Below are positions 14,500 to 63,600 of a DNA stretch of 64,000 bases, piece by piece. A model generated the notes under the pieces. That model did not search any database, was not told the origin of the DNA, and saw only the letters and a program-made list of their open reading frames with translations. The DNA comes from Catajapyx aquilonaris (taxonomy: Eukaryota). Position 1 is the first letter of the stretch. Every line of letters starts with the position of its first letter. The translations under genes and the position numbers were made by a program. Location of the stretch: positions 1 to 64,000 of the forward strand of contig KZ538299.1 of assembly GCA_000934665.2 (NCBI GenBank), given 5' to 3'.

Positions 14500-14536
<37 letters not shown>

Positions 14537-28931: not shown

Positions 28932-28984
28932 GTCCGTGGAATTAAGGTCTTGCTCCTAGGTCTCCTGAAATTAGGCCATGGGTT

Positions 28985-40317: not shown

Positions 40318-43300
40318 ATGGCAGAAGGCGTCCAGGAGGCTCCGGCTAGACGTGGACGTTCGATGGAGGCCGAGACGCAGCCGGGAAACGCGGTGAGGAA
40401 GTGGTCAAAATGTTACATTTACACATGTGCAGCTGGGCCTTGATCAGGTTCAGACGACAACAACGACAACAACAACAACAGCAACAATAGCTAATTATCA
40501 TTTTCCCTAATTTTAGGAAAGCTCTGATTCGTCTCTTGGATTGCTGTCGTCGTCATGCCTGGCTGGTAAGTCACAATTTAATCTGATTTACATTGTGGAT
40601 TAAATAGAGATGGGAAATAGTGTAGGCCTACCGACAGTCCAGCAGTATGTGATGATTGCTTTTATGTCTGGTACAGAGTTGCTACACCGATTGCTTTCAT
40701 TTGCAGATCCGTTTGATGAGCAGATTCACCCCGAGATAACGCCACTGCCGGCTGCGTATTTCGAGAGAGAAAGCGGGGTGTCCATCAGCTTGTCTAAACT
40801 GCCGTTTTCCCCGCACGTATTCAAGTCGTTTGAAGACCTCTCGAGGGTAAGAACGATGCGCATTTTTTATTTTACGTGTCTGGAGATTGCTGGTGATGAC
40901 GAAGCAGGTAGTCGTAATTAATATTGAATTTCATTAATACAAAAGGTGGCTGGAAATGGTAGTAATGTTACATTGTATGGCAACGGCAACCTCACTGCAA
41001 GGTGTTTGACCAGTGCTGTAGTGAATGCCTTTTATTTTATTGTGGGAAAGTTTTCATGCAATTTTTGGTACCAATTGATGAGGTCAACACATTTTTGAAA
41101 TTGATAGTTGGTATTGTTATGTTATCATTGCATTTTCAGAGGCTGTCCTTCAATGACACAGCTTTGGAAAATGGACATTCTGCTGATGAAAGTGATCCAT
41201 GGAAAGATTTTGAGAAAGGAGGAATTTGCAGCACCCTTAGGTATATGTTGTTCATACACACTTATTACACTTTCTTAACCTCAGCTACAGCACTTTCCCG
41301 CAGTAATTTTTCCATGATATTGAATTAGATATTGGAATAGGAAATTTAGTGGGAATTATTCTGTTACGGAGCATTATAACGTCACCATTTTAATCATATT
41401 GCTTTTTTTGATGTTAACAAGCTGATATTGTTTCTAAATAATTGTTAATACATGCTTCATGCAGTGAGGAGAATTGCGAATGGCAAAAGGAATTGGCAAA
41501 TGAGATCTTCAGTCCTGCTCGTAAGTGAAAATGAATTTGAGACTCTGCCGCAGTCTCATTGCTTTTCATGATTGTTACAGAGGAAGTGATACCATCACTA
41601 ATCGAAGATGAGCTTCTGGTGCAATCAGAAAGGAGTGCGCTAGAATCATATAGTTCAAATAATTGCAATGAAGTTACATTGCTCCAGAAGTATTTTCAGA
41701 TCCGAAGTCTTCCTATTGGATCTCTAGCCGGTGATGACAATTCAAGCAGGGTGAGTTCGTAATTCCAAGCGAATTATTTCTGGAATTTTGTTACACATTG
41801 TAACTTAATTGAACACATTAGTGTGCATGCACCTTTAATTTGTTTCCTCATTCAATTTTCTTTCCTCAGCCATATTTTGATGTGACAACTAGCGATGTGT
41901 GTGGCTCTGGAGATCAAACTATTGAGAGGCCAAAATCAGACATGACCTTGGTGTCTGAATGTCTTGACACCGTTTCACTGTCCGAGAGCCCTGAAAGTGT
42001 GGTTGCAAAATTTATGAACCTCTTTAGGGACAAACGTACTCATGATTCTATATCTGAGTCACTGAAAGCAGGGAGTGAGACCAAACCTGAGACTGTGAGT
42101 GCAGATGTGGGGAGCTGTGCCATGCCAGGTGACTAAATATGCAGCCAATTTGCTTATAAAATATTAACTGCTGCCGATATTTCAGGTAAAAGATCAACAC
42201 CAGGAGAAAGGAAGACAAAGGACGTTACATCTGAGCAGAAACGTGAGTGTCTATTCCGAGGAATGATTAGTGACATTTATTTTTACTCTTTTCTAGGCCA
42301 GATTTTAGTGCCATTACGAGTTCCAGTGACTGAAGTCATGGGAGTTGGGGTGATGAAAGATGTGTGCTTTACCTGCACTAATTGTGGTCAACAAAAAATT
42401 AATTTTACAATGAAACTTCACAGCGCATTTGTTAACAACAAATGCGAACGAAATAATCCATCCGATGTGATTAGCCTGCTGAGTGAAACTTTTACAGCCG
42501 ATCCTGGAAAAGAGGTGCACGTCCAGGTGAGGTTAATTTGCTTCTAACGTAATTAGAGTGGTACAGTATAATTGTCTTTATTGCATTTTGAACTTAGGTA
42601 TCAGTCACACCTTTGGTTGCTGGTCACTTACGTGGCGTTCTGAAAATTGTTAATCTGGATAGACCAACGAAAGTAGAAGCAAGGATGTCAGTGACCCTGG
42701 AAGCTGAGGATCCGATGGTAACAATTACAATTCCAGAGAGGGGCGAACTTCTTGACTTTGGGCTGATGGCAGAAGGATGTCAGAAGTTAATGTCACCAGT
42801 GATTTCTACAAATGGAAAAGCAGTTGTACCTCTTAGGATTGAAATAGTGAGTTTGCTTCTTCGTGTGTAGTGTTTATTAACCTAATTGCAATTCTTTTTG
42901 TTACAAGGATATGCCAGTATTTTCGTTCAGCCCACAGCAGGATGAAGGTGTGACTTACAACTCTCCTTTGGTGATTCAGTGTTGCCTACAAAGGAGTCGG
43001 CCTGTTCCAGTGCATGTCGAGTGCAAAGTGCAAGACACAGATGCAAAAGGTTCATATCTTGATCAAATTATTATGCATGTTTGACTTTTATGAGCTTGCC
43101 TTTTTAGAGTCCTTGCATCCTACAACTCTTCAAGGGAAAATGATGACCCACCTTGATGTGTCACGATCAGATGGAAAGGTTATCAGGCCAGCACTAGAGG
43201 AAGTTATTCTTAGGGTGCAAGTGGGACGAGCCAAGGTTTCTGTTGATGCAAACCCTTTAGTATTCCTAGCCGACACTGCCAGTGGTACAATGACAAAAAA

Positions 43301-45798
43301 ACTTTCGGTCCGAAATGAGAAGGGCAGTAACATGGCTGCACTTATAGTCATAACTGTCAAAGGAGAAGGTGTCTCAGTGTCACCGGATCTGGTCACAATT
43401 CCCCCTGAGAAGGTGGCAGAAGTCACTGTCGAGATGGTAGATGCAACGGACAATCATTGTGAGAAGTAAGTTATTATTTCATTATCTTCATCATATGAAA
43501 CTGGTATTCGAGAAGTATTGGGATGTGATACATGCCAGTTTAACTTACATTCCAGGTCGCTGATCCTGACCATTCTACCCGAAGGAAGGCATATAGAAGT
43601 TCAGCTTAAGATTGAAGACCGTGAACCTCCACCTCCACAACCAGCACCACCGGAAGACAGCAAAACGGTTCTATATGCAAGCCAATCCCGTGTCTGCTGG
43701 GGCTGCGTTCCATTGGGTCATTCATCAACACGGACAGTCACGCTGTCCACCCCGGCATCATACCCTGTGCCCGTCAGGGCCAGTGCACATGGAGATGGGT
43801 TCTTCCTGAACGAGAAGACAATCACGTTGGCTCCTGGTGAAAGGCAGAAGATTACCATTGCATTCCAGCCTAGGAAAGTGGGACCTAGCGGAGGAAAGCT
43901 AATCATAAAAGTGGCTGCTGCCGACAAGTTAGTAAATTAAATTAAATTAAGCTGGCCTGGGTTATTGGTCAATTAGGATTTACTGGGGTAAAACTGTAAC
44001 TCGTGAATGTTGTTAATATTTTACTATCTCTTGTGCAGGGAAAAGAGTTTCAGGTACGTGATTGCGCTGGCAGGCCTGGGCGGATCGTGCAATACTTACC
44101 TCAGCTGCATTACTCGTGACCTGGATGGCTCCCCTTGTATTACCCTGGAGCCCTGGAGTAAGGGAGGCTTTTACGGGTCAGCCATGATTTCTAATGCGGG
44201 CAACCTCACAGCATTTGTTGCTGTTGTTGTGAAGCCTGATTCAGCCCTCAGCTTGCAAGCAGATGTGGATAAGTTCTTGTTGGAGCCAGGGGCTGGCAGA
44301 TGGATCAACATGAAGTGCGGAGAGGTTCCATCTTCAGTGTTGACAGCTTCATTTTACATAGTGACTGTCGAGGAGGTGACCCGAGCCAGATATTGCAGGT
44401 TTGGGATGAACGCTGGTCTTCATTATTTTTTTACTCCATTTTAACCCAGTAATTTGCAATGCCAGTTATAATTGATACAAAATTATCATATTTTGTAACT
44501 AGATTGCATGTTGGTTCTTGGACACAATTTCTCACCAGGAAATATTTGGCGAAGTCTAATTGTTTAAATCTGCCCCACAGAGCAGTTAGTCTACTTGGAA
44601 AGAGGTCAACCAATATTGGCCCACATCCGTCCTTGAGTCATCTTGACCTGAGCCAACCCTGCTCTAAAGAGAACCTTGAGATGCTCCCTTCCGACCGCAG
44701 TGATCTTAAAGACCTAGGGCAGAGCCTCAAGTTAACGGAGGTAGTGGTCAGGATCGTGAGGGAAAGAGGCTCGGATGTCACCTTGCCTTCTGAAGAGACT
44801 CTCAGCAACACCGTGGCTGACTCGAGGTCAGATTTGGTTTATCCTGTTGCTGGATAAGCAGTTTAGAAGTAATAATAATGTAGATGTTTATCATTACTTT
44901 GATGCCTGATTTTTTTTTTTCTTTTTTTCCCCAGGTTGCAAAGGACATTTTTTCCACCTGTCTGTCTATCAAGAGCTTTTTCTGCTGCGTCCTTGCAAGT
45001 AGGCGACTGTTGAATAATATTTCCTCTGCAAATTGTGATTGATATTAATTTCTTCAACAGTTAGAGGCCAGTTCTAGTGTATTGGATCCAGATAATCAGA
45101 AGGTGATGGATCCAGTGCTTCAGTAAGTTCATCTTTGAATAATGGAACTGTTTGTTGGGCATGTTGTTACATTTTGAGCTGCCCATATATTTTGCAGTGC
45201 TAATGTCAATTATATTTTTACATCACTGTTTTCATTTGCTACATTTACACTTGCCGGACTCTTCTAGGGTGTGTATCATGTTAGCAACCGATGTAGAAGC
45301 AAAACCGGAGGCTGAATCGATTGTGCTTGCTTTTGCGCCAACCATCACAGGAAGTTGCAGCACAGCAAAACTGAAGATGTGTAATAGAAGCAATGAAAGG
45401 CAGAGGGTTAGTACTGCATTAATTTCTACATTATTAACTCCACAGTACAGCAGCGCTTCTCCGATTTGGAGTCGCAACATAAATTGGAGTTTTTGAAACA
45501 TAATGTTGGCTCCCTGTGAATCAGTCCACATGATTTTGGATAGCTTTTCAGTTGACTCTTGCACACACATGATATTTTCATTTTATATTCGCAGGTCTGC
45601 ATGAAAGTGGAACCATTTGATAACGCTTTTAGAATTCCGTGCGACAGTGTTGAAGTGCGTCCTCGTTATTACGTGCGGATGCCATTCCATTTCACTCCCA
45701 TCTCAGCAGGTGGCTTTGAGGCCAGGCTTCACATCATCCAGGAAAAAAGGGAACCCCTAGTGATTACAGTGAGAGGCATAGGGCTTCCAAGCCAATAG
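40318..45798 (+). CDS. CEP192: Centrosomal protein CEP192/Spd-2 homolog, multi-exon
   Basis: Disordered acidic/Ser-rich N-terminus followed by several ASH/PapD-like domains: LLDFGLMAEG, VCWGCVPLGHSSTRTVTL, YVIALAGLGGS, ISNAGNLTAFV, STAKLKMCN and VRPRYYVRMPFHFTP. Confidence 0.75.
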
Positions 45799-48097
45799 AG
45801 GTATTTCTAGGACTTCAGGTAGGCACTAATTACAGATGTCATGTATGCGCTTATGACCTGGGAAAACCATGACAGAAGATTCCATGAACCTGAAAACTTT
45901 TCTTTGCTTCTGACTTTAGAAATATGTCAGCCCATAATGCGAGGAGTAATACATAGTACAAAATAAAGTGTTGCGGAGAATGCAACGCAAACACGGACAC
46001 TATACCACAATAATTATTGGTTCGTGGTTCAAAAAACATCGTGAAGCAGTGAATATATATTAGCCAATTACTATTTGGCTTATTATTAGTACTACAAAAT
46101 AGTAATGTTAATTATTGTTAAACATATTTGGATTATAATTTTTGGCAAACAAGGAACACGAACACCATGTTGCATGGCTGTAGATCGGGACTAGTGTTAA
46201 GTGTTTTGAAAATGAATATATTTTTTTTTGCGGCACGTCACTTTTGCTTTAAATGCAGATGACATTCAATGCTAGCACAATCAAGCATACATCCATATCA
46301 GATATGGGACCATGCCACATATCGCTTAATTAAAATTTTGATAACCATTACCAGGAGGAATAGGTGTTCTCGTATTAAACTTACCACCATGTACTTGTCA
46401 ACAGTTTGAATTAAACTGTAGCTTTTAGGGAATTGTTTTTCTTCTAATACCTTCACTTTGTTTAATTGCTGTGCTGTTGGTGGCTCTTAATTGTTAGACA
46501 AAATGGGAGAACCCTGAGAAATCCTATGATGCAGAGAGAGAACCCATCAGACGTTCTTGGATCAACTTAAAGATCAATTATTGTGGTACCGGTACAACAG
46601 ACCTGGAAACATGTGGCGTCTACTACTTCACCTCTGCTGCTCCTGCAGTCATTCATTTTTAAAAGGTTTTCAAGTTTGGCTTATTGCGGAGCTGAGGTGA
46701 TGAAGCACAGGGCATAAATTGTTTATAGTGAGGCTGGAGACATTTTAAATGACATGTGGTCACTAGTATGAACTATGTTGTACGATGTAGGGATATGTAT
46801 GTAATGGAGGAGATTCTACTGGTAATTATCTATAAAAATAATATGGATACTGGTTTGGCATTCAGTGTATTTTATTATTGAGTACTGGACATGATCTTGT
46901 CCCAGAAAAGGAAGGTGCCATTTGCAAGATTTCTACCAAAAAGCTAACTTTCGTTCATAAATGATCATATGTTAACAGGGTGTTAACCCCTTAATTTGTT
47001 GTGCCCTGTAAATTTTAAGACACAGGCAAAGAGTGCAATGTTTGTCCGTTCAGTGTATCTGGGAGTCTTATTGAAATCCCCTCCTGGGTCACAGAGCTGG
47101 GTCACAGAGCTGACCCTAGATCCCAGCCATGAATCATCACACAAAACCTGAGTGAGACAGTTGACAGTGAGACGACCTCCAGCTAAAATGCCATGCAAGA
47201 AGTTATAGAGGCACTCCTTTACACTTGCCAAAAAGGGCAAAATCATTCTTTCTCACAGTCAGATACATTTGCCTAAAAAGGAGACGGCAGAAGAAAATTA
47301 TGTTTTTTTTTTTGTCCTGTGAAATATTTACTGGTAAACTAATCACTGCATTTTTGTGGATTAAATAGTAGGGCTATGCTGTAGTGTGTATTATAGGCAT
47401 AGATCAGGCAGAAAACTTTATGTATTTGTTGCAAAAGTGGGGATTTCGCTCTAACAGACCATGGTGCCATGGTTGTGATAGACTGATTTCCGCAGTCCAT
47501 TTTCTTGTGAAGGTTGTGATCAGAAGGGAAACAGGTGACATAAGTAAACTCGCAAGGATATCTCACAATCATTTTTGACCTGACTGTGAGGGGTAAACAT
47601 TCCACAGGTTATTTTGGTGGACTAAGGACATGATCTGTGCTCCACACTGTACACGTACTGTGTATGTAACTACAACTTTGTTTGCCTCATGTTTGCAATA
47701 CTTTGTAGTATTTTAAAGATACCCAACATCATCACGTATCGGTTTTAACTGTTTTATTTCTTCAGAAACAAAGGGCAGCATTAATCTGTTTTATAGCATT
47801 TTTTTTTCTCTAGCTTACATTGAAGGCAATGCTAATTAGACCAGTGACCTCGGCACTTTTAAATCATCCAATGGTAAGCAATGTCTAATTGTACCAAGTT
47901 CTGATTGGTAGCTTTGCTACACAGATGCTGCAAGTTATGATCTTCTAAGATTTCACTATCTTCCATTGATGCCTGTACAGAAAGTACATGACTGTAACCA
48001 TATGCAAGGGGAGCTGTCCAGAACCCAGATGAGTGCTGCTATGTGACAGTGCAAGCCCAATGGGGGCATCAACAACAAGGGATGAAGGCAGCTAAGC

Positions 48098-50934
48098 CTA
48101 TCCACTGCGTTGGGTACAGAAAATCAGGACAGCGTGCAGCAGAAGGGCAATGATGATGTTGGCCAGGACAGGGGCATGCGCTTGGGATGAGTTGCCCTCT
48201 TGTCCTGGGTAAGGGTTCTTCCTCCTGTAGTCCTTCATGTTTGAGTAGTCCTTCTGGATCGCCTTTGTTCCCTCTGGATCGGCCTTGCAATCTTCCGTAT
48301 TCCTACAACATCAAAGCCTGGCATTATTTATTATTTTTGGCCACATACATTCAACAAACAGCCATTTGGAGAACCTTCCTCTTTTTTCCAAGCGACAAAA
48401 GGAGTTTGTTCACTCTGTTTACTCCTTTTGTCTCTTGAGGGTGTATCTCCATTGAAATCTAGACGTGCATTCCCAGATGTCCATTGACTTACAACAGATA
48501 TTAAGTTTAATGTTAACATTTTTCTTCCCTTCTGTCATTAACTGCAGTGCATATAATTAAATTGCAATGATGGCCCCATAAAGATTGGGCTGCCCTTGAA
48601 ACTTCCATCCACAGATATCTACACTCACATGTTTATCAGCATGCGAGTCCAGACCCTACCCTATATTGGCGCACATTGTAAACCACCCTAGGTACAGCAC
48701 CAGAAATGATTGCTTACAACATTCCTGGACTGATAGCGCATGGGGTGGTTGTCGTGATAGTGTCGCAGCATGCCTTCTGCTTGCATGGGTAGAAGTAGTG
48801 AGTGGTGCCGCAGTCGCATTCCTCTCCTGGTTCCACTATGCCTGCAAATGCAAGTTGCTGTGATGATTGGTCCCGGATTTATTGAGTGCCACGGACTCAC
48901 CATTCCCGCATGTCGCCCTGAGCAAGGGAAAGAAGCAGGTGCCCTGTGCCCTCAGCACCCTCTCGATGGCCTTCCTGGAGCACTCGGACAGACGGTAGTT
49001 GTTGGCCTTGTTCCCGTTGGGCCTCTTTCCGTCCTCGTCTCTTCCCATCAGGTACAAGCCCTCCATTCCTGAGAATGAGAGACGTCGTCTCTTGATAATA
49101 AGCAACACCATGCATATCTATACTGTATATTATAGGGAGGGGTTGCCTCACTGCTAAATATCCCTAGTTCTTTGTATTCTCCCGCTATTGTCTTTCCGCA
49201 GTCCGGGTCCTTAGCCGGGTCGTCTTTTCCTGCTCCCATGGACTCTGCCATGAGCGATGCTGCCAGGATATTGAGCTCACGGTGGCCAAAGGCTGCCCCG
49301 TCCCCTGGTGACCTTCCGCTGACCACGAACAGGTTGCGACTCATGGCCTCGCCGTTCATCCGGACGTTCTCCTCGCAGATGCCCCCTGTCATCCTGCCTG
49401 GGTCGGCACGGTACGCTGACCCTGCCGGTGCAAGACAATGCTCAATTATTAGCACAGGGTATACATTATTTGGATCTAAACCACGATATGAGTTAGTGCG
49501 AAACCGACCTGGTTCTTCTTGGAACTTCAACCCTGTGAGTACAATAACCATGCAGAAGTCGTTCAGGTTGAGCCTCCTGCTCATCGTGTCCCTGTACCTC
49601 ATGGGATCGGTGGCCTGGAGCACCTCCGCCGGGAATCCAGTAGCATCATCGTGAGTGAAAACGGTCATCTGCAAATCAGCCGTGTAAGGGCCGGAGGGAG
49701 GAGGAGAATTAGTTTTAAATTGTTGCTTTGTACGTACGTAGTTGGGTATGAACAAACTGACGTCGTTGATGACATAGTCGACATTCTGCGAGCAATTCAG
49801 GTTGATTCCGTCCCAGTTGACGGGATAGAAGATGTTCCTGACCGATATTGCCACGTCGGCCATCCTGAGGAACGCGAAGTCGATGGCGCTGAAGCAGAAC
49901 TCCCTGAAGAATTCTGGATCCGCCACCACCCCTATCCTGCAGCCCACTGCGTAAGGCCTGAAGTTGGGACCATACATTATTATATATATATAATAATTAT
50001 GAGGTTGCCCGCATTCCGCCCTTCTGCACCTTACAGGAGATGTAGGCTGGCCGAATCGCAGGCTTACCTTTTATAGTCGAATATCCGAATCGGGTTGAAC
50101 TCGTGGTACTGGTCTTTCGGCTTGACGAAGTGACCGTACACCCCAAATGTCTCTGGCTGAACCAGCCGTTTGACCCGACGCAGCGGGCGCTCATCTGACC
50201 TGTTGTCAACCTTGGCCTCATTAGTCCTGTGAATGTGTCCAACTTCGTACATGACCGTCTTCTCCTCTGGACGCAGAGGGTACGGAGCACCTCCACTCTG
50301 CCAAATCAGATCCGAAACAAATGTTGGCCTATACAGTTATGTACACAGCATTTATGTTGCACCATCAGTACCTGCTCGACGATCCCTGCCATGAGGTCGG
50401 CGTGTTCCAACACGAACTCCTTCTCTCCAGCCCTGAACTGTCCGAAGAAGTGACCCTCGTGGACGTAGCCACTTGCGGAGGAGTTGACCCCTCCGTGTCC
50501 GGTCTCGTAACCTTTAACTATGGCGCTCCTAGGGTCGTTGTGCAGCTTGACCGTCCTCTTTCCCGCGGACGACACGACGTTCATCCGGACGTGGTCGTGG
50601 TTCTGGACCGACAGGCACAGGTTGTACCTCGTACCGGTCTTGTTGATGGTCACCTCCAGGCAGGGTCCATGCCGCTATTGTAATTTAATATTATTATCAG
50701 CTACACTAACCGATATGTATTCGCTCACCTTCTCCTGATCTTCTGGGAGAGGCCATGTGTTCTGCAAAAAGAGATCGGTACTGACCCCCATTTGCAAAAT
50801 GCAAGCTGCTGCTGGACACTTACCTGATCGACCAAAGTGGAGACGTGGTGATACTTCTCGAAGTAAGTCTTACCACATGTCGTCTCGACACTTAGGACCA
50901 CTATGATTGCAAGCAGCAACACTCTAAACTCCAT
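48098..50934 (-). CDS. ADAM10/17-like pseudoprotease, copy A (signal peptide, prodomain, zinc-less M12B domain, disintegrin stub, GPI-like tail)
   Basis: Signal MEFRVLLLAIIVVLSVETTCG; furin site RRVKR; GSAY...GGICE; ILAASLMAESMGAGKDD in place of HExxHxxGxxHD; GLYLMG...NNYRLSECS; CGNGIVEPGEECDCG; tail EGNSSQAHAPVLANIIIALLLHAVLIFCTQRSG*. Confidence 0.8.
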
Positions 50935-51603
50935 TTAGGATCTGCGCAATCCCACAACTGACCAGATGTGGAATATTGCTCATTTCCCTTGGTTACTGGG
51001 AACTGTTGATTATTATTTGCACACACAGAGTGCCAATATACTGTCCGTAGCTACCAAAAATGCAGTGACCAACATACCTGGGAAACATGTGGCATATCTA
51101 CCGATTCATCTCTGCTGCTATCTGCTCTATGTAGAAAAAAATTGGCTCATATACCTGATGCCTATAGAACCCCTCTACCATCCCCCAAAGCCATCTTAAA
51201 TTTTTCGTACTCTGCTGCCCTGTATATGCAATCAGAACTATTTAATTCCATCACTGCTGGTAACGTCAATTGTCGGAAATAAAACAAGTTGCACTTTCTG
51301 AACGGTTGTATTGACATCGATCTCCACTAAAATTGATCAAACTGTGAAACAACTTGTCACTTATTCAGAAGCTGCTGCAGAATTTCTCTTCTTCCAGGTA
51401 TTATAGGGTTTGTAAGTTTTCCCAAATCCTGCACCCAGTGCGATGATTGTTCAACCAATCAACTGAAGAAGAAACAATGGAGGTGCCCTCCTGTTTGGAA
51501 CGTTTAATTTATACATGAATTCACTGCACATACCGTACCTATTCTTAGGTGCTACTCCAGTTAAAACCACTTTTTCTTGACTTGTTGTATATAAAAGGCA
51601 ACA

Positions 51604-54358
51604 CTAATTAGACCGTTGGGTACGGAGAATCAGGACAGCCTGCAGCAGCAGGGCAAGGAGGACATACGGCAAGACAGGGGCATGGGCTGTGAAGGCGCCA
51701 GCTTTTCCTGGGTAAGGTCTTAACCTCCTGTAGTCATTCACTGTTGGGTAGTCGTCCTCTGGCTTCTCCTTTCCTGCAGCATCAGCCACACACATTTTCT
51801 TTTGCGTCTCAGGCAGGTTCCTACAACATCGAAGCCTTTATTATCATCATCATATTTTAATAATATTATTCTTCCTCCCCTATACCATGCATTATTGCAC
51901 ACATCGGACTATATGGATATGGGCAATTAACCAGCATAAATCCTTCTGATTGCTTACCCGGATATAGATATTCTGCATGCTTTGAGTTCGTTTATAGTGT
52001 TGCAGCAGCCCTTCTGCTTGCATGGGTAGAAGTAGTAAGGAGCGCCGCAGTCGCATTCCTCTCCTGGTTCCACTATTCCTGCAAAATGCAAGTTGTGAGT
52101 ATATGGATGTGATTTTGGTCCTGGACGTGCCACGGACTCACCATTTCCGCATGTCGACCGGAACAACGTGTAGAAGCAGTAGGCCTTAGCCCTCAGCACC
52201 TTCTCGATGGCCTTCCTGGAGCACTCGGACAGACGGTAGTTGTTGGACTTGTCCCCTTTGGGCCTCCCCCTCTCGTCTCTTCCCATCAGGAACAAGCCCT
52301 CCGTTTCTGTGAATGAGACACGTCGTCAGCAGCTGCGAAACCCTCCGTTTGCACCAAAGGCCTCACTGCTAGGTTGTGGTTGCGCTATTGTTATCCCGCA
52401 GTCCGGGTCATTCGGGTCGTCTTCTCCGGCTCCCATGGACTCTGCCATGAGCGAGGCGGCCAGGATATTCAACTCCTTGTGTGGGAGGGCATCCCCGTCC
52501 CCTGGTGACTTCCCGCTGACCACGAACAGGTTGCGACTCATGGGCTGGCCGTTCATCCGGACGTTCTCCTCGCAGATGCCCCCGTTCGTCTTGTCTGGGT
52601 GGGCACGGTACGCTGACCCTGCCAGTGAAGACAATTTGTATACCCGGTATATTCGGATATAACCACGATCTGAGTGGCTGTTCCCACACCGCGACAACCG
52701 AGAGCGATAAGAAGCTCTCGGAGGAACTCATTATGAAAGTCACACCCTCAGTTCTCGCGGTGGGCTGTCCGATTGCGTTCTGCATCGCGAAATTCGGAAC
52801 CGACCTGATTCCGAGACGAACGTCAACCCTGTGAGTACCACAACAATGCAGAAGTCGTTCAGGTTGAGTTTCCTGCTCATAATGTGTCTGTACATCGAGG
52901 GATCGGTGGCCTGGAGCACCTCGGAAGGAAATCCCTTCGCATGATCCTCTGAGAAAATGGTCATCTGTGAAGCCGTGCAGGAATGAGAGAGAAACTAATT
53001 AGTGTTTTAATAACCCCTTTTAAGAAATTGGCGAATTGCGCGAAAACAAGGTGCCATAACCAACATTGCTCGCATCAGCTACAATCTTTGGCATCTCAAT
53101 AACCGATCTCAACGCAATACGCCAACCTGATGCGGTCAATGTATAGAAACGACAAAGCCCTGTTGTTGCATGTAAGTTTGGTGTGAAAAACTGACGTCGT
53201 TGATGACATAGTCGATGTTCTGCGATCTCGCCGTGTTTCCTTCCCAGTTTACGGGGAAGAATATGTTTCTGATTGATTGGCCCACGTCGATCATCCTGAG
53301 GAACGTGAACCTGGTGTCGCTGAAGCAGAACGCCCTGAAGAATTCTGGATCCGCCACCACCCCCATCCTGCAGGCCACCGGGTACTTTCTGAAGTTGGAC
53401 AAATTACACATGCGCAGGTTGCCCTCTTTGCGCCCGTCTGCACGGGAGAGAGCTTATCTCGCCCAACGAATCGCAGGTTTACCTCTCGTTATCGAATATC
53501 CGACCCGGGCTGAATTGGTGGAACTCTTTCGTCTTGGCGTAGTGACCGTAGACCGGAAATATCTCTGGCTCAACTCGCCGTTTGACCCGACGCAGCTCAT
53601 CTGACCTGTTGTCAACCTTGGCCTCATTAGTCCTGTGAATGTGTCCAACTTCGTACATGACCGTCTTCTCCTCTGGACGCAGAGGGTACGGAGCACCTCC
53701 ACTCTGCCAAATCAGATCCGAAACAAATGTTGGCCTATACAGTTATGTACACAGCATTTATGTTGCACCATCAGTACCTGCTCGACGATCCCTGCCATGA
53801 GGTCGGCGTGTTCCAACACGAACTCCTTCTCTCCAGCCCTGAACTGTCCGAAGAAGTGTCCCTCGTGGACGTAGCCACTTGCGGAGGAGTTGACCCCTCC
53901 GTGTCCGGTCTCGTAACCTTTAACTATGGCGCTCCTAGGGTCGTTGTGCAGCTTGACCGTCCTCTTTCCCTCGGACGACACGACGTTCATCCGGACGTGG
54001 TCGTGGTTCTGGACCGACAGGCACAGGTCGTACATCGTACCGGTCTTGTCGATGGTCACCTCCAGGCAGGGTCCATGCTCCTATGTATAATTAATTATTA
54101 TCAGAGCTACACTAACCGCTGTTTATTCGCTTACTTTCTCCTCATCTTCTGGAAGCGACCTCTCCCCCCGTGTGTTCTGCAACAAGACAATATAGATACT
54201 GACCCCACATTCCGACCTACATGGTGCTGCTGGACACTTACCTGGGTGACCAAAGTGGACACGTGGTGATACTTCTCGAAGTAAGTCTTACCACATGTAG
54301 CATCGACACTTAGAATAACCACGATGATTGCAAGCAGAAACATTCTTTCGAACCCCAT
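51604..54358 (-). CDS. ADAM10/17-like pseudoprotease, copy B (tandem paralog)
   Basis: Signal MGFERMFLLAIIVVILSVDATCG; CRMGVVADPEFF; GGICEENVRMNG; ILAASLMAESMGAGEDD; CGNGIVEPGEECDCG; tail AGAFTAHAPVLPYVLLALLLQAVLILRTQRSN*. Same exon layout as copy A. Confidence 0.8.
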
Positions 54359-54688: not shown

Positions 54689-57600
54689 TCAGTTGATGAG
54701 GTCCTCGGGAGTCCCTGGCAGGTTCGGTGCGCTGTACCTGTACGCGAAGTCCTTCCTGAGCGCCGGTATCGACTTGCTGTACCGACGAGGTACCCGTGCT
54801 GGAGAGACCGGTTCAATGTCTATGGTCGGAGGACCTATCGGAGGCAGCAGGGGTCGCCTTCGGGTCACCTGGAGGGCACCACTCTCCAGGGTGTGCTCGA
54901 ACTTGACCGGACGATACGTCGGTACCACGCCGTCACGGAAGCTCCTATTGGCTGCCTAATAGAAGTGTCACGACGTCAGTTGTGCTCTGTGCGGACTTTT
55001 TACACCTGCAGAAAATATCTCACTCTAGATGAATTTTTTTTATACAAACGCAACCGAGTGCCCACCACAGTTCGCGAATTATGCATCAATGATTGTTGGT
55101 AACCTGTCTGCAGACTGCGCTGCACTTATTTCCAACGCTACACCGACTGTTTGCGACGTTGCCAAAGCTATCAACTAACCTCAGAGGCTATTTTTAGGCC
55201 CCTGGGCAGTTACTCTGGCAACGTTGTTGGAGCTGCGTGAGTGTGGGTGCGCACTCGGTTGCGCTCGTTAAAAAAATTATCTACAGTTGACCTGCAAAGG
55301 CTGGACAGATCCGGCCCGCCTCTTCCTCTTCCTCTTGTAAATGAAGACTGCGATGGACACGACCACTATGAGAAGGATGACCACTCCTCCTGTCACCCCT
55401 CCGATTATCGCTGCTGTCGATTCAGTCACTGACGACGACGAACCTGACGACGAATGAGGTTGGACATAACCAGATGTTAATATATTTCCGGCTGACCTTA
55501 TACCTTTGGCCACTTGGTCCAGGTTGACCAACGCTGTCCTCAGACTCTCGTTGTCGAAACCGGTCAACAGAAGCTTCCTCTCAGCCAGAAGTCTCATCAG
55601 ATCGTCGTACAATTCCTGTGGTGTACGTCCTCCGCCATCTGGGTCCACCACCAGCTGAAGAGTCACTATGATGCTCCCTGGATGGTAATTACAATCATGA
55701 TGATGCTAACAGTTAGTTAATATGGAACTAGTAGCCAAATGTTGGCCACATTGTTTATTTGCCCACCCTCCAACTTGGACGTATAGTACGATATGCCATT
55801 ACCAGTTGACGCATCCTGCCACTCTCAGAGCGAAAGTACTACATGCACGTTGGTGATGAGTCGCCGCTGGGACAAAGTCCACCAGTCCAGTTTCTTAAAC
55901 TGTATATTTAAAATAGAAAGGACCACTTGCTCTCCCCTACTGACCTTTGTACACTCGCAGGTTGGCAATTTGTTTCGGAGACGCTCGCAGTAATGTTGCC
56001 AGCTGGTTGGTGAGAAGAGACTCGAACTTTTCCTTCCTGTTCCTGACCACCGCATCGTAGTCTTCTTCAAGGCTGCAAATGTGCCATTTACCCCAAATTG
56101 TTTTCATGGTATATCATCATGAATTAACTGTACCTGAACGTTGCGTTGATTCCTGGGTCATCAGGTGTCTTCGGAGTAACCGGAGCGTTTATATCGTCCG
56201 ATACTTTCGGAGATGTACCGTCTGAATTGGGACCCGTCGGCTGTGCTTTGGTCATTGTGTTATCAGTAGGTGATGAAGGCTTTATTGTTGTGACCTGGTC
56301 TGTTCTTGCTGTAGTTTGCGTAGAAACTCCGTTGACCGCAGTTGGTTGCGTCGCAGTTTCTGCGTTCTGTCCGTTACTCGCTGGAGCACTGTCTCCTGAT
56401 GTTGAATTAGTTGCGTCGGTGTCCTCACGACCATTTTGTGCGCCGTCTCTGAACGCGACTGTCGTACCGTCTTGCACCGTGCCTTTTGTCGTAGTCGTAC
56501 CAGGAGTCATTGTCTTGACATTTGTCACACTAGAAGTCGTGCCTTGTTGTTCACTCTGCATTGTAGGGTTTGGAACCAGAGTACTGCCTAAGGCACTGTC
56601 GCCGGTACTGTCAGGGTTCTGCTGATTAGGCTGTACTGTATCACTTGTACCTGGGGTGTTTCCAGTACTTGTTGCGTCCTGTGCTGTACCACTTCCAGTA
56701 CTTGTACTTGTCACAGCACTTGTACTGCCTTGTTGATCAGGTTTTACTGTACCACTTCCAGTACTTCCTGTTGCGTCTTGTGCTGTACCACTTGCAGTAC
56801 TTCCTGTTGTGTCTTGTGCTGTACCACTTGCAGTACTTCCTGTTGTGTCTTGTGCTGTACCACTTGCAGTACTTTCTGATGTGTCTTGTGCTGTACCACT
56901 TCCAGAACTTCCTGATGTGTCTTGTGCTGTACCACTTGCAGTACTTGCAGTACTTGTCACACCTGTACTTACTTGTTGGTCAGGTTGTACTGTGTTATTT
57001 GTGAGTGTGGTGCTTCCAGGTGTCTGTTGATCATTCGTGGGCGATGTATTGCTTGTTTGTGTCTGTGTACCGTCGTTGGTGACAGTTCGTGTTGTAGTGT
57101 TTGTACTGTCACTTGGCGCACTTGTGTCACCGGCTGAAGTAGTGTTTTGGTCAGGCTGTGCACTGCCGCCTGTTTGCGTGTCTGTACTGTCACCTGTCAC
57201 GTTCGCACTGCCAGGTACTGTGTCACTTGCTGTACTGCCTGGTGATTGTGTGTCTGTACCGACACTTGTCGCACTTGTGTCACCACTAGGAAGTGTTGCA
57301 TTTCCAGTACTTCCCGCTGTTTCCGTAGTGTCAGTTGTCACACTCTTATTGCTTGGTGATTGCGTCTCTGTACTGTCACTTGCTGTACTATTTGTACTGC
57401 CTCCCTGTTGATCAGGTACTGTACCGTTCGCTGGTAGTGTACTGTCAGTACTGTCAGTTGTTGAATTAGTACTGCCTGGTGATTGCGTACCTGTGCTGTC
57501 ACTTGGGACATTTGTACTGCCACTAGGTACTATACCGTTTGCTGGAAGTGTGTCAGTACTTACCGCTGTTTCCGTACCGTCACTTGTCGTATTCTTACCA

Positions 57601-60600
57601 GGTTGCACCGTACTGCCTGGCGATTGCGTACCTGTACTTGTTGCTGTACTACCACCCTGTTGATCAGATACTGTACCATTCTCTGGTTGTGTATTGCCAG
57701 TACTGTCCGGTGTCTGTGTTCCCGTACTGTCAGTTGTGTTAGTACTACCAGATTGCACAGTACTGCCTGGCTGTTGTGTACTTGCCGTACTTGTGTTACC
57801 ATCAGGCATTGTTGTGTCATTCGCAGGCACCGTGTTGCCTGTACTTCCCGTACTGTCAGGTGATTGCGTCTCTGTACTGTTACTTGCGACACTTGTACTA
57901 GGTTGTACTGTACCATTAGCTGGCAGTGTGCTGCCAGTATTACCAGCTGCCTGTGTCGCATTGTCTGTTGGTCCAACTTCAGTACCAGTACTGCCTGATG
58001 GCAGCGGCTCCGTAGTACCTGCTGGAGTACCATTGACAGCGTTGCTTGACCCTCCTGTTTGACCATCAGTCACTGTGGTATTGTTAGTCTCACTGACACT
58101 ATTGGGTGTGCTGGTTGACACGTTGTCTGCACCTGAAGTTCCGTCACTGACAGTGTTAGGTACTGCTGTGCTGGTTTGGTTGTTGTCCACGCTGGTCGGG
58201 ATTGTACCGGTTGTACCCTGTTCACTTCCTGTGGTCGCTGTCGTAGTGACGTCCCCTGAGAGTGTTTGGTTCGTCGCAGTGTCGTTTGAACTCTGACCGT
58301 TCGTATTGGTCTGTGACCCAGGAGTTGACCCATCAGTGTTAGCCGGAGAGGTCGTTTGGAGTTCAGGTGTCGGTGCTGGTCTCTCTGTGTCCTTGATGTC
58401 CCCTGACATGTTGAACACCCTGAAATGACCACCGTACGGTTAGAGCTTGGTCAGCATTTCAGGACATGTTGTCCATACCCGAAATATCCGATGTTTCGAC
58501 ACATGCAACTGACTGTGAGCGATTGCACTCCCGACACGGTGCAAGACTCTTCACTCCAAGACTCTTTATTCCACCACAAGCACTACGGATTTAAAAAGAT
58601 TCGTTGCTGATTACAAGTCCCAAACTCATGCCAAGTTTTGTGCGTACTCACTCTAATGTCGTCATACGCTGCTTCAGTCGTGTTCAACGGAATTTCGAGA
58701 GAAAACGGCTTCTCAAAGGTCAGATCCTGCAGTACTTCTCCGGTTACAGGATTGTGCAAGCTTATGTGCACCAACGCACTCCTGAAAAGTAGGATGTATT
58801 ACAAGATGCCCAGTAGTACAATCATAATATGACTTAATTACATCTCTAATAAGTGTATTTATGAATTGCATTGCTTTGATTTGTCGTACAGACTTTTATT
58901 TTTACATGGTGTGACGATGATGATGAGTTATTCGGGCGGTAACTGACCTTCTCCTGTTTTCCCATCGCAGTTGTTGTGACACGTAGTCTTCCGGAAATGC
59001 AGCCGTACCAAGACACACCCCATGGCAGATGGACCCTTCCATGCAATTCCAGGAATCTAACCCTGCGGATATCTCCGACCCAATCTGCCAAAATTAATAT
59101 ATATGAATCCAATGCCGTGCTTCCAAAATTAAACGTTCCCGGAACTTACATAAGCATAATTAATGTCGCTAATGGGTACCGTCCACCTGCTGTTCGCGTT
59201 TCCAGAAGTGAGTTGCATGCCCAAGGTAGCCGACGGGCTCTGAACCTTAATTATTGGCTCATTGGAAGGCGCCAGGCAGAGTTGACCCAAATATTTCGGC
59301 ACGTCGTCCAGGAGACGCTGTAGTTCTTGACCTCTGACCCCAGAAGACACGCCGGGCTTCAAGGCCAGCTCGGACGATCTCAGCAAACTTCGGACCTGTA
59401 CAGACATGTCATTATTACTATACTGTACATGCCCAAATTCCGAAAAATATCTTTCAGTGTGTTTCAGTGTGTCAGGATTCATTGAAAACCTGTAGTGCAT
59501 TATTTCATTCACTTTCAATTCATTTTGGACATCATTTTAATCCATTTTAATGCACAAATACATGCACTGAGCGCATTTTCAAATTCACACATGTCCTCTT
59601 TGAAAATTCAAATATTTTCCTTAATAATTATTATTAAGGGAAATATTATTCACCTGCCCCAGTTTTTTAAAGTTTGCCATCAGTTAGTAAAATAATGCGC
59701 TCCAGGGTTTCAATGTTCTTGCGCTATGTCCATATAATGCAACGTGCATTATTTTTGTATAAATTACAGGTTGGACGATAAACATTGATTAATAATAATA
59801 GTACCTCCTGAGATGTCAGTCCGGATGACGTAGTTCGAGCAACAATGGCGCGTTTGCAACGCAGCACTTTTGTTACTGTCGAGTCGGAGGGACTGAACAT
59901 GGATAGGGTTGATACCATGTCTTTCAGAACTGTGATTGATTCCCTGATAGGAATCGACCCTTGATTTATTTGCATCAGCAGGTTGCGTGCGATCGATCTT
60001 CGTATTGTGTCCTCCACGTGGGAGGACACGTTGCGAAAGGTGTCCTGCTGGTCCGGTATGGTCAGCAACACCGTTTGGGACAAGGTCAAAGCTGCCTGGA
60101 CAGACAAAGAGTCGATCCGGTCCTTTAACGACCTGAAATTACGTGTTTGATTACATCTGATTAAACTGTACCGGTGCTAATAAGTACTCACTGAACGTCG
60201 TTGTCTTGCAGTGTACCCGGTGGCTTTGTAGTTATGTTCTGAGCCTCAACAGTAGTGCATATTTGGTACGTATCGCACACTCTCAGCACCGGTACGCAGC
60301 TTCCATCCGGGAGATATCCGTCAGCATCCGGCATGTCCGCAGTCACCCGATGCAACACCCTCATGTCCTCCTCCTGAGACAGCCGGTACCCAAAATAATG
60401 CGTCATGGGCATAGATTCAGAGTACCATCCACGTGCTGAGAACTTGAAGACAGTCCGAAGCGACTCTCCGTCGTTCGGTTCAACCCGGAACGATCCGGGC
60501 TGAGGCGGTACAGCAACGGACACGCTGACGGTACTGTCGGATCTGTCTGCTCTTAGCCTAAAAGAGTAGTCTGCACCTGGAAGCAACGAGTGGACCACAA

Positions 60601-63600
60601 GCGGGATGCGATGCTGGGATGCTGATCCCTGCAGATTGCGTCTGGACCATTCGGACCAAGTGTTTCCTAAGCTTCTTTCCCATACGGCTTCGACTGCATC
60701 GGACGAAGACACGAATCCGTCAATTTGAAAAGGCGTGTTCGGGTCCACAGATCTTGATGGACCAACGGCGGTTGTCGTCACTGGAAGAAGTCCTGGGAGG
60801 ACAGTGACACTGGCTTGCGATTTGGATTGAACTGAACCTTTGCTGACTGTCACCACAAATGTGTATCTGAAAAGGTACCACGGCTCAGAAGAATTCGTGC
60901 CGTACACTGTAATTCATGCACCGATAAACAAATACTGTATGGTACTGACTTGTAGACAATACATCGTTCAGAAGTACTAACTTGTAGACAGTACATCACT
61001 GTCTGCTGTATCGTTCACATGTCCTGACTATTAGACAGTACATCGGTACTGACTTGTAGACAGTACAGTGTTCAGATGTACTGACTTGAAACTGGTACCG
61101 TTTCATGTACCGACTTGGACAATACCGTCTGCAGAACTGACTTGTAGACGGTACATTTCCATTACAAACACCAAGTCGGTACATGAATATTGCAGTGTAC
61201 TGTACCTTTCAACTGCGAGAGTATTTGGAGGTATCCTAAGCACTGGATCGGCCAGAACAGACCCGATGATGTGGCTCTCCAGTCTGGTGGGTGGATCACC
61301 ATTTGGTGACACCATGCATGGTGATCCGGCCACGTTGCATTCCCACGAGTATGTCACGTTTCCAGGCGTTGCGTCCAAGTCGGACGAACCGGATGTGTCC
61401 AACACAAGTGCGTTCTGGACACCAATCACTAGTGATGCTGGTGACACTCGAGCTGTTACACCTCCAGAAGTGACATATACTATTCGCGACGCCTGGAAAT
61501 ACAACATGGTACAATTTGAGCGAAGAAGTTGTTGGATTGTTTGCTGCGGATAAACAATCACAATCGTGTCCTTACCTTCGCAAAAACTGTAAGATTTGTC
61601 TCCAGCACAACAATGCACGAAAATTCGTACGTGACTCCGACACGCATTGTTTCTGGTTCCAACATGAGGGTTCGTCCACTTAAAGACTGCACCAAGGTCG
61701 CAATGTCTGAACTATTTACGCTCCAAAAGTACTGCAATAAATTTTCAATTTTTAATAATTGTTGCGTTCGTAGTACAAATCATTGTTACCTACATTAACT
61801 TTGAGCGGTCCTGGTTGGCATGAGTACAGCTGCGTTTCCAGAACAAGAGTTGCTTCAGGCTGAATCCTGTTGGGACCGATCAGACGCAAGTTCAGAGTCG
61901 CAGGTTCTGAATCGCTTCTGCGTAGCACAAACGCCTGAATCCCAGTTTTCTTTCCTCTGAAGTTTTCGCCAATCACACTCACTTTGTACGTCATGTCCTT
62001 GCGGATCTGCAAATAATGTTTCCATGTATTTGACCCGTTCCTGTTGGCACAGCGGTACGCATTTTCCATCTTATTTATTATGTCATGCGGATGATTTTTT
62101 TTACGAGCTCAATCGAGTGCGCACTCACATTCGCGCAGCTACATTGTTTCGACAACAATGTTGCCGCTGAGGTTCGTTCCAGATCATTGGCACCGTCGCA
62201 AACGTAGCGTTGGAAACAGCTATCATTGATCATTCCAACCGTGGAGGCTGCGCGAACTGTGGTGCGCACTCGGTTTTGTTTGTTTAAAAAAATCCATATA
62301 ATCACCTTTGATCCGTCAAGCTCGATGACTCCGTATTTGTACTGAGGTCCTGCACTGACTAGTCTCTTCTGTAACTCTCGGACACTGTCCCACATGGCCA
62401 GGTTGTGCTTTCGAGAGTGGGTCAGCACCAGAGAGTCGTACAGGACAGTCCAATTAAAAGACATGGGACGCGCCCCGACGCCTTCAATCAGCGGAAACGT
62501 CACGTGGAAAGCGGCGTCGTCGCACACAACCAGCGGATACGAGACGTCCATTTCCGGAACCATTTCCTATATACCAAAAGATTCAGCGCTACAGTTATCG
62601 TGCACGTGTAAGGACAGAGTCACGCCTAGCCAATTTTATATACCTGAGATCCGGGCACTGTGACTTCTCCGGATGCGAACTGCGCTTCGTTGCTGGCTGA
62701 ACTCCGGACTGAATCTCTGAACTTCAGCTTGACGCCAGCGTCTAGCCCGGCCCCGACGCCCAGGGTGACCAGCACCTTTCGTCCGCCGAAAATACATTTG
62801 GGTTCGTCACCCAGAAGCTTGGAAGTGTCGTCGAAGATGTCCCGACAGTCTCTTGGTCCTTCGACTGGACGGTCGAATTCAATGGAAAGTCGACGCCAGT
62901 CTTGGGTCAGTCTCACGGAGGTCACTACTGGAGGACCTGACGCCTCATCAGTGCTGTTGGTCCTATTGTCCACACTAGAAACGGCTGGAAGACACTGCAT
63001 TGTACCGTCCACCGACACCTCTCGGTTGGAGACACCGCACTGCTTTGCACAATCTCTGGTGACAGGTGATGTCACACACATGCCACAGTCCCAATACGCA
63101 TCTGAGGATAAACGAAGCGTTACTTTACGAGCTCAGCCAAGTGCGCACCCACACTCGCGCAGTTCTATCATTGCGCATGCTTGCTGCGCAGACATCATGC
63201 GCAATGTGCGAGTGTGGGTGCGCACTCGGTTGCGATCGTAAAAACAGTGCTCATACTTCCATTCGGTTGATTGTTGCAATCTGTTGGCACGTCCGGCGAC
63301 GCATTTTCCCATTGTAGGCCCATCACAACAATGCTGTCCGACATGGGCGATCCTTTTCCGCACATCTACGTCATAAATACACTATAGTGAACTCGTTGCC
63401 AAAATCAGTATGACAGTGACAATCAATCGACTTTCAATAAGGCGGTCATACTATTGTTCATGCATATAGATGGAGCATAAATCATCTGCACACTCTCAGT
63501 TCGTGCGAGGGATAGCGGTACTATCAGGTCGGACAAACATCCGACGGAGAGAATAAGCGGATTAGGAGAAAGATTTATAGTTGAATGCGGGTATCGGTGT

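What the first reader, a model, noticed from the sequence alone, without database searches (positions are those of the whole stretch)
48098..54358. Tandem pair of catalytically dead, apparently GPI-anchored ADAM10-like proteins
Seen: both genes have a signal peptide, a prodomain ending in RRVKR and an M12B fold with ADAM10 landmarks (GGICE, Met-turn LMG, NNYRLSECS, CGNGIVEPGEECDCG). The zinc motif reads A-S-L-M-A-E-S-M-G-A-G-(K/E)-D against ADAM10 A-H-E-V-G-H-N-F-G-S-P-H-D, so all three His and the catalytic Glu are gone. I see no cysteine switch before the furin site. The disintegrin stops after ~30 aa, and the protein ends in small residues plus a hydrophobic tail with almost no cytosolic segment. 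Established: ADAM10/17 are type-I TM sheddases with full disintegrin/Cys-rich domains, and dead ADAMs are known mainly from other ADAM clades such as the mammalian sperm ADAMs. Inference: a lineage-specific GPI-anchored pseudoprotease family acting as an adhesion molecule or decoy. The dead motif is conserved in both diverged copies and the frames look intact, which suggests selection rather than decay.
Basis: partly seen in the sequence, partly recalled or inferred. Interest (0 to 1): 0.8.

Follow-up and report, generated by a model that had tools for sequence, protein, structure and literature searches.

The report
Dead, probably lipid-anchored ADAM10-like gene pair
Two neighbouring arthropod genes encode intact relatives of the cell-surface cutting enzyme ADAM10 that have lost their zinc-binding active site and seem to hang on the cell by a lipid anchor, so they probably act as binding proteins, and they come from a little-noticed third branch of this enzyme family.

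Summary
Confirmed. Two ten-exon genes (596 and 599 aa) have open frames and canonical splice sites. All three zinc histidines and the catalytic glutamate are replaced. The rest of the disintegrin and the Cys-rich domain are absent from the whole window. Each protein ends in a hydrophobic tail with 4-6 residues after it.

They belong to a clade of at least 10 dead loci in this genome. This scan noted other members before, on other pieces of the same genome.

(1) They are not Kuzbanian/Kul derivatives (AU p 0.012). They sit in a third, widespread invertebrate ADAM10-like lineage.
(2) The GPI-like tail and missing cysteine switch predate the loss of catalysis: beetle and moth members with intact motifs share both.
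(3) dN/dS between the copies is 0.44-0.82, so constraint is relaxed, and about 430 bp of prodomain DNA is homogenised.

Best reading: furin-matured, zinc-free, GPI-anchored binding proteins; a gamete-surface role is the leading guess. GPI anchoring and expression are untested, and the tails are hydrophobic enough to be short-tailed membrane helices. No dead relative was found among 131 public homologues. Ten literature searches found no description of the family.

The parts
51604..54358 (-). Gene A, 596 aa, 10 exons: 54358-54242, 54176-54135, 54080-53778, 53703-53483, 53388-53196, 52964-52805, 52618-52367, 52306-52142, 52078-51958, 51820-51604
   Evidence: no transcript evidence
48098..50934 (-). 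Gene B, 599 aa, 10 exons: 50934-50824, 50761-50729, 50674-50372, 50297-50068, 49957-49762, 49668-49509, 49421-49152, 49068-48901, 48841-48718, 48302-48098
   Evidence: exons 1-8 and the start of exon 9 recovered automatically from A alone
54296..54358 (-). Signal-peptide-like hydrophobic N-terminus of A (cleavage site approximate)
   Evidence: hydropathy 3.62 over 11 residues; no signal-peptide predictor was run
50878..50934 (-). Signal-peptide-like hydrophobic N-terminus of B (cleavage site approximate)
   Evidence: hydropathy 3.44
53597..54028 (-). Homogenised prodomain tract in A (exon 3, intron 3, part of exon 4), about 99% identical to B; likely gene conversion
   Evidence: identical runs of 57, 111 and 262 bp
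50191..50622 (-). Matching homogenised tract in B
53578..53592 (-). Furin-type site RRVKR in A
   Evidence: basic site also present in 4 other modelled dead members
50166..50180 (-). Furin-type site RRVKR in B
52419..52457 (-). Erased zinc motif in A: His1 to Ser, Glu to Leu, His2 to Glu, His3 to Glu
49222..49260 (-). Erased zinc motif in B: His1 to Ser, Glu to Leu, His2 to Glu, His3 to Lys
51958..52151 (-). Kept N-terminal (shoulder) part of the disintegrin in A, 7 Cys, split by intron 8
   Evidence: weak Pfam Disintegrin hit, E 0.039, model positions 1-22; Cys positions
48718..48910 (-). Kept shoulder part of the disintegrin in B
51604..51820 (-). Last exon of A: one Cys, polar linker, small-residue patch about 30 aa from the end, 19-residue hydrophobic stretch, 6 further residues (GPI-like signal)
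   Evidence: GPI reading is inference
48098..48302 (-). Last exon of B: same layout, with N-S-S 31 residues from the end and 4 residues after the hydrophobic stretch
   Evidence: GPI reading is inference

Best explanation
A and B are functional pseudoproteases displayed on the cell surface by a GPI anchor. SHOWN in the sequence: signal-like N-terminus, prodomain, furin-type site, an ADAM10/17-type M12B domain without any zinc ligand, only the shoulder of the disintegrin, and a terminal hydrophobic stretch with almost nothing after it. INFERRED from how ADAMs and GPI proteins are known to work (recalled): the protein enters the ER, about 30 C-terminal residues are swapped for GPI, the prodomain chaperones folding and is cut off by furin. 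That leaves about 370 aa of zinc-free head close to the membrane, which cannot cut and cannot signal by itself. It binds an extracellular partner, as dead ADAM22 and the dead sperm ADAMs do. The copies share an interchangeable prodomain but have diverged in the exposed head (67% identity), which fits differing binding partners. Relatives put the same head on stalks of up to about 1,300 aa. GUESS within this explanation: about 40% that the surface is sperm or another gamete-related cell.
For: Intact models; 8 of 10 exons differ in length between copies and all 8 differences are multiples of 3. All 18 Cys of A are matched in B, and 271 substitutions outside the converted tract gave no stop against 7.8 expected, P 0.0002. 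ML/YN00 dN/dS is 0.44-0.66, and 0.04-0.47 in other dead pairs. In 10 of 10 dead loci the helix residues A, M, A, M, G, A are invariant, while the three ligand sites and Glu take 4, 5, 5 and 2 different residues. All 4 other dead members whose end I could read also finish in a hydrophobic tail, and some are too short or polar for a membrane helix (12 uncharged residues in C395). 14 of 14 apparently complete beetle/moth relatives end within 11 residues of a hydrophobic stretch, 13 within 3, whereas 92 of 101 other homologues have tails over 20 residues. Dead ADAM1a, 2, 3, 6 and 7 act on mouse sperm (PMC9114714, passages). A REJ-domain gene lies directly upstream, which is only a weak hint.
Against: There is no transcript or protein evidence. 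The tails of A and B are as hydrophobic as true membrane helices (2.36 and 2.56 against a median of 2.45) and 4-6 residues follow, including an Arg. No GPI predictor was available, and prediction separates GPI from TM poorly (PMC10863630, passages). Simple dN/dS estimators give 0.68-0.82, bootstrap 0.53-1.02, and 1.10 in the tail. No binding partner is identified. Gene neighbourhood is poor evidence of function in animals.
Confidence: 0.6

Rival explanations
1. Same dead binding head, but held by an ordinary single-pass membrane helix with a 4-6 residue stub in the cytosol.
For: 19-residue hydropathy of 2.36 and 2.56 equals that of homologous TM helices. An Arg follows the helix. Scorpion and centipede members of the same lineage have strong helices with 6-31 residue tails.
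Against: Polar Gln/His sits inside the stretch and small residues lie about 30 aa from the end. Homologous tails in sister genes are shorter or weaker, and beetle/moth relatives end almost at the hydrophobic stretch.
Confidence: 0.17
2. Regulator of active paralogues: the dead head traps their substrates or inhibitors as a decoy, or the furin-released prodomain inhibits active ADAM10-like enzymes in trans.
For: The genome holds 4 intact-motif and 2 half-dead genes of the same lineage. The furin site is kept and the prodomain is homogenised between copies. The edge-strand G-x-A pattern before the helix survives.
Against: Heads diverge fast and several relatives carry giant stalks, which fits reach and recognition better. 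A conversion tract needs no selective reason, and it includes an intron.
Confidence: 0.12
3. Young duplicates drifting under relaxed selection towards pseudogenes; the dead motif was inherited and A/B no longer matter.
For: dN/dS 0.68-0.82 by counting methods, with an interval touching 1. Expression not shown.
Against: P 0.0002 for no stop under neutrality, 18 of 18 Cys kept, frame-keeping length changes, and all 18 splice junctions canonical.
Confidence: 0.07
4. A still-active enzyme with a non-canonical metal site, built from the two Glu residues in A and nearby Asp residues.
For: A has Glu at the His2 and His3 positions. His3-to-Asp is thought to be tolerated in ADAMDEC1 (PMC3055250, passages).
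Against: B has Lys at His3, the catalytic Glu is Leu or Tyr in 10 of 10 loci, and no acidic ligand set is conserved across the clade.
Confidence: 0.02

Closest known systems
ADAM10 / Kuzbanian-type and ADAM17 / TACE sheddases (PDB 6BE6, 8ESV, 1BKC)
   Same: Only PDB sequence hits of the dead-only profile and top fold hits. Same prodomain, furin site, M12B domain and start of the disintegrin.
   Different: No zinc ligands or catalytic Glu, no rest of the disintegrin, no Cys-rich domain, no cytosolic tail. The genome has its own two canonical ADAM10 genes and a TACE. Grouping the dead clade with canonical ADAM10 is rejected (p-AU 0.0115).
Database-annotated 'ADAM10-like' proteins of beetles and moths (e.g. 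Cryptolaemus P0009, Phaedon P0037, Choristoneura P0123), within a third invertebrate lineage that includes centipede, scorpion, mollusc, annelid, hemichordate and amphioxus proteins
   Same: Nearest public relatives in the trees: 96/94 under LG+G4 and 90/92 under the mixture model; whole lineage 93/98 and 99/96. They share the GPI-like end, and 13 of 16 have no Cys before the catalytic domain.
   Different: 18 of 18 keep HExxHxxGxxH, and the complete ones keep the full disintegrin/Cys-rich region. The best BLAST hits of A and B among all 131 public homologues are only 24-31% identical. I found no paper on this lineage.
Catalytically dead ADAMs: mammalian sperm ADAM1a/2/3/6/7 and neuronal ADAM11/22/23
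   Same: Pseudoprotease head used for binding. Sperm members are needed for migration and zona binding (PMC9114714), and ADAM22 is the LGI1 receptor (PMC3055250); passages read for both.
   Different: They belong to other ADAM clades and are transmembrane with full disintegrin/Cys-rich domains (domain detail partly recalled). This is an analogy, not membership.
ADAMDEC1 (decysin)
   Same: Lacks part of the disintegrin and all of the Cys-rich domain, and has a His-to-Asp change (PMC3055250, passages). The half-dead C4771 genes and scorpion P0118 also have Asp at His3.
   Different: Secreted, thought to be active, mammal-specific and derived from the ADAM28 cluster; the truncation is convergent.

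Membership tests
ADAM10/17 group (M12B adamalysins) | ADAM10/17-type M12B domain by sequence and fold | tested here: met
   Dead-only HMM hits only ADAM10/17, best E 4e-7. ESM Atlas top hits are Reprolysin at 0.90-0.91. Foldseek top hit ADAM10, E 4e-9, from a model whose alignment held ADAM10/17 homologues. Pfam found no M12B family in the single exons or the read-through ORF.
ADAM10/17 group (M12B adamalysins) | Signal peptide, prodomain and furin site | tested here: met
   by pattern and hydropathy only
Active ADAM sheddase | HExxHxxGxxH/D zinc motif | tested here: not met
   All four residues replaced in A and B
Canonical ADAM10 (Kuz/Kul) orthogroup | Phylogenetic placement with canonical ADAM10 | tested here: not met
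   p-AU 0.0115 under LG+G4, where long branches may pull
Canonical ADAM10 (Kuz/Kul) orthogroup | Full disintegrin, Cys-rich domain, TM helix and cytosolic tail | tested here: not met
   No such exon in the window; control genes recovered
Canonical ADAM zymogen | Cysteine switch in the prodomain | tested here: not met
   0 Cys in the 100 aa before the catalytic domain; also absent in 13 of 16 intact-motif beetle/moth relatives
Third invertebrate ADAM10-like lineage (unnamed) | Nested placement with beetle, moth, centipede and scorpion ADAM10-likes | tested here: met
   94/94, 96/94, 90/92 inside a 99/96 clade; inner order unresolved
GPI-anchored proteins | Signal peptide, omega-site small residues, spacer, terminal hydrophobic stretch, no cytosolic domain | tested here: inconclusive
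   Pattern present, but hydropathy is TM-like and 4-6 residues follow; omega rule recalled; no predictor available
GPI-anchored proteins | PI-PLC release or glycolipid attachment | not testable with these tools
   needs an experiment
Sperm-type pseudoprotease ADAMs | Testis or sperm expression | not testable with these tools
   no expression data in hand

The most novel reading that the evidence does not exclude
Invertebrates kept a third ancient ADAM10/17 lineage, which insects moved onto a GPI anchor. In this arthropod it turned into an expanded family of zinc-free recognition receptors: one dead head on stalks from none to about 1,300 residues of an unclassified Cys/Pro repeat. They work on gametes, which would be an independent reinvention of the mammalian dead sperm ADAMs from the sheddase branch.
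Probability: 0.25. Interest if true: 0.8.

Novelty: new variant of a known kind. Interest (0 to 1): 0.58.

Why it matters
ADAM10 and ADAM17 are treated as a small, stable, always-active, transmembrane pair. Dead ADAMs in the papers read here come from other clades. This pair shows the sheddase branch giving rise to a maintained pseudoprotease family. One genome holds a graded series from intact to half-dead to fully dead motifs, which is a natural experiment in how an enzyme becomes a binding protein. The comparison also exposes an apparently unstudied lineage whose beetle and moth members look like GPI-anchored, catalytically competent ADAMs; that is directly testable in Tribolium or a moth.

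Tried and rejected
No RNA holder was listed for the stretch; this is not evidence either way, and read mapping could not be done.

Searches that found no dead relative outside this genome: the read-through ORF against longer public proteins, 0 of 1,944 candidates; the dead-motif exon profile against 1.84 billion representatives, 1 hit that is an unrelated repeat protein. That profile also missed ordinary ADAM10s, so it is insensitive. phmmer of the read-through ORF against the PDB gave only 2 chance ORC2 hits.

The AlphaFold control built from dead-clade exons alone had mean pLDDT 42 and was not used for a fold search. The usable model (pLDDT 65) covers exons 5-7 of B with two introns read through and lacks the Met-turn, so the cleft could not be judged.

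The quick 81-row tree rooted on ADAM12 put the root on the beetle/moth long branch and was set aside. The Cys-rich stalk of relatives had no Pfam or Atlas hit.

A 36-nt mini-exon at 48458-48423 proposed by my aligner was not adopted, because the donor at 48717 matches A and C382 in sequence and phase; RNA is needed to settle it. Short hydrophobic ORFs downstream of both genes lack supporting exon context and were treated as chance. No complex prediction was run, as no specific partner is claimed.
Full report
OBSERVATION. The window is G000:C528:1-64000 in a 285.6 Mb assembly. That it is an arthropod is my inference: its canonical ADAM10 gene C5157 groups with mite and tick proteins at 99-100% support. 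On the minus strand lie two genes of 10 exons each: A (54358-51604, 596 aa) and B (50934-48098, 599 aa). All introns are GT-AG, phases match and there is no internal stop. A spliced aligner given only A recovered B's exons 1-8 and the start of exon 9. It placed the last junction differently, through a 36-nt mini-exon. I kept the donor at 48717 because A and the paralogue on C382 splice at the same point in the same phase. The proteins are 75% identical overall (442 of 587) and 67% after residue 190 (271 of 402).

THE DEAD SITE. Pfam does not recognise M12B in the single exons or the read-through ORF. A profile made only of dead-clade exons hits only ADAM10 and ADAM17 in the PDB (21 of 21 hits, best E 4e-7). 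The ESM Atlas returns Reprolysin clusters at 0.90-0.91. A partial AlphaFold model (pLDDT 65) gives ADAM10 then TACE as best folds. Its alignment contained such proteins, so it is not independent, and the dead-only control failed (pLDDT 42). His1, Glu, His2 and His3 are Ser, Leu, Glu, Glu in A and Ser, Leu, Glu, Lys in B.

TRUNCATION. After the catalytic domain come 7 Cys of the disintegrin shoulder and one more Cys in the last exon. An HMM of the missing part, built from 114 homologues, found those exons in five control genes of this genome and nothing in the window. Only 670 bp separate A's stop from B's start.

FAMILY. The motif exon matches 10 loci (10 of 10 candidates), and a distant member returns the same 10 (of 11 candidates). 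These are lower bounds. Two close pairs (dS 0.12-0.13) could be haplotypes. All 10 are dead: six helix positions are invariant, while the ligand positions take 4, 5 and 5 different residues and Glu is always Leu or Tyr. This points to a kept fold with a released metal site. C382 has the same short build as A and B. C395 and the C1325 pair put the head on long Cys/Pro-repeat stalks ending in hydrophobic tails, with no Pfam or Atlas match. C2534 and C3688 have the start of such a stalk, but I did not find their ends. The genome also has two canonical ADAM10 genes (C1478, C5157; which is Kuz and which Kul was not tested), a TACE-like gene and a meltrin-like gene. It has six atypical ADAM10-likes as well: four with intact motifs, two of them with a short disintegrin and GPI-like end, and two half-dead. 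Earlier notes of this scan describe other dead members on other pieces of this genome; I found the family before reading them.

ORIGIN. Of 131 public homologues, 130 keep HExxHxxGxxH and one scorpion protein has Asp at His3; best hits of A and B are 24-31% identical. These are the top rows of two searches, one of which listed 120 of 2,228 hits, so dead relatives lower down would be missed. In careful trees (48 of 141 rows under LG+G4; 34 rows under a mixture model; rows chosen by me to span taxa) the dead clade is 100/100. It joins this genome's atypical genes and beetle/moth 'ADAM10-like' proteins (96/94 and 90/92), next to centipede and scorpion proteins. The whole forms a lineage that also holds mollusc, annelid, hemichordate and amphioxus proteins (93/98 and 99/96), apart from canonical ADAM10 and TACE. 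Forcing the dead clade together with canonical ADAM10 is rejected (p-AU 0.0115), with the caveat that long branches can pull. All 18 beetle/moth rows keep the zinc motif, yet 13 of 16 lack a Cys before the catalytic domain. All 14 apparently complete ones end within 11 residues of a hydrophobic stretch (13 within 3), against 92 of 101 other homologues with tails over 20 residues. The GPI-like end and the lost switch therefore came first and the loss of catalysis later, assuming the tree is right.

ANCHOR. A and B have small residues about 30 aa from the end, then 19 hydrophobic residues containing a Gln or His, then 6 or 4 residues (hydropathy scale and omega rule recalled). Against GPI, the hydropathy of 2.36 and 2.56 equals the homologues' TM median of 2.45. 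For GPI, sister tails are weaker or shorter (1.1-2.1). Lobb-Rabe-type tests in S2 cells show that prediction alone does not separate the two (PMC10863630, passages; I cite it by id only). I put GPI at about 70-75%.

SELECTION. About 430 bp spanning exon 3, intron 3 and part of exon 4 are about 99% identical between the copies, while other introns are heavily diverged; this suggests gene conversion. Outside that tract, dN/dS is 0.68-0.82 by counting methods (bootstrap 0.53-1.02 for residues 196-525; tail 1.10) and 0.44-0.66 by YN00 and ML, with GC3 of 0.70. Against decay: 271 differences gave no stop where 7.8 were expected (P 0.0002), 18 of 18 Cys of A are kept, and 8 of 8 exon-length differences are multiples of three (partly circular, as I chose the junctions). 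Other dead pairs give 0.04-0.47.

MECHANISM. Most likely (0.6): ER entry, GPI attachment, prodomain-assisted folding and furin removal leave a zinc-free head that binds an extracellular partner without cutting or signalling on its own. The anatomy is shown; processing, anchoring and binding are inferred from recalled ADAM and GPI biology. Fast head divergence, tandem expansion, variable stalks and the precedent of dead ADAMs on mouse sperm (PMC9114714, passages) make a gamete role my leading guess, at about 40%. The REJ-domain gene about 900 bp upstream is a weak hint only. Rivals: short-tailed TM anchor (0.17), decoy or prodomain inhibitor of active paralogues (0.12), decaying duplicates (0.07), non-canonical enzyme (0.02).

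LITERATURE. Ten searches were made. Four returned nothing; one was too loose (2,491 papers, 20 listed and seen as a listing only); the rest listed 1-4 papers. I read passages of PMC3055250, PMC1867822, PMC9114714 and PMC10863630, and no supplements. None describes a dead or GPI-anchored ADAM10/17-group protein or this lineage. PMC3055250 treats a vertebrate 'ADAM10-like' and gives ADAMDEC1 as the precedent for truncation. Most subscription journals are not covered, and I recall that a eukaryote-wide ADAM survey exists which I could not see; it may name this lineage.

VERDICT. The finding is real and well supported as a maintained pseudoprotease pair. It is a new variant of a known kind: dead ADAMs are known, but in what I could search not from the ADAM10/17 group nor with a GPI-like anchor. 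Function and anchor are unproven, and the scan has seen sister genes. Interest 0.58.

Noticed in passing
window 55277-63132 and probably beyond, minus strand: Gene directly upstream of A with two REJ-domain exons above the Pfam cut-off (E 8.7e-7 and 2.5e-15), a GPS-like Cys/Trp exon near 58500-58580 (pattern recalled), a 770-aa Thr/Ser/Gly mucin-like exon and one TM exon. A REJ-GPS-mucin-single-TM layout without a channel domain looks unusual.
   Followed up: partly
P0009, P0022, P0037, P0052, P0068, P0071, P0073, P0083, P0093, P0096, P0110, P0123: Beetle and moth 'ADAM10-like' proteins with intact zinc motifs end in GPI-like tails and mostly lack a cysteine switch: candidate active GPI-anchored ADAMs, apparently unstudied.
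   Followed up: partly
L027:5306-9181, L026:4688-8500, L025:3660-6752: Single giant exons encoding up to about 1,290 aa of Cys/Pro-rich repeats as a stalk under the dead ADAM head; no Pfam or Atlas match.
   Followed up: partly
L035 (G000:C4771) and L033 (G000:C5793): Two tandem pairs of atypical ADAM10-likes. The C4771 pair is half-dead (Glu to Thr or Gln, His3 to Asp); the C5793 pair has intact motifs.
   Followed up: partly
window 49048-50070, minus strand: Introns 5 and 6 of gene B (93 and 87 nt) are stop-free multiples of three, giving a 340-aa read-through frame; intron retention would give in-frame insertions.
   Followed up: no
A residues 197-233, B residues 194-231: A roughly 35-aa extension between the furin site and the first strand of the catalytic domain is conserved across the dead clade and partly in two intact-motif paralogues.
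   Followed up: no
window 5205-11738 (+), 13165-15588 (+), 22781-25672 (+), 28416-28955 (-), 33495-34641 (-), 42975-45800 (+): Other genes: ASH/Hydin Ig-repeat ciliary protein, flavin amine oxidase, C2H2 zinc-finger protein, COX4, 5'-nucleotidase and a Cep192-like gene.
   Followed up: no
window 55040-55300, 62090-62300, 63130-63240: A short dispersed element with inverted ends recurs in introns of the REJ gene (seen by eye); probably a small non-autonomous transposon.
   Followed up: no
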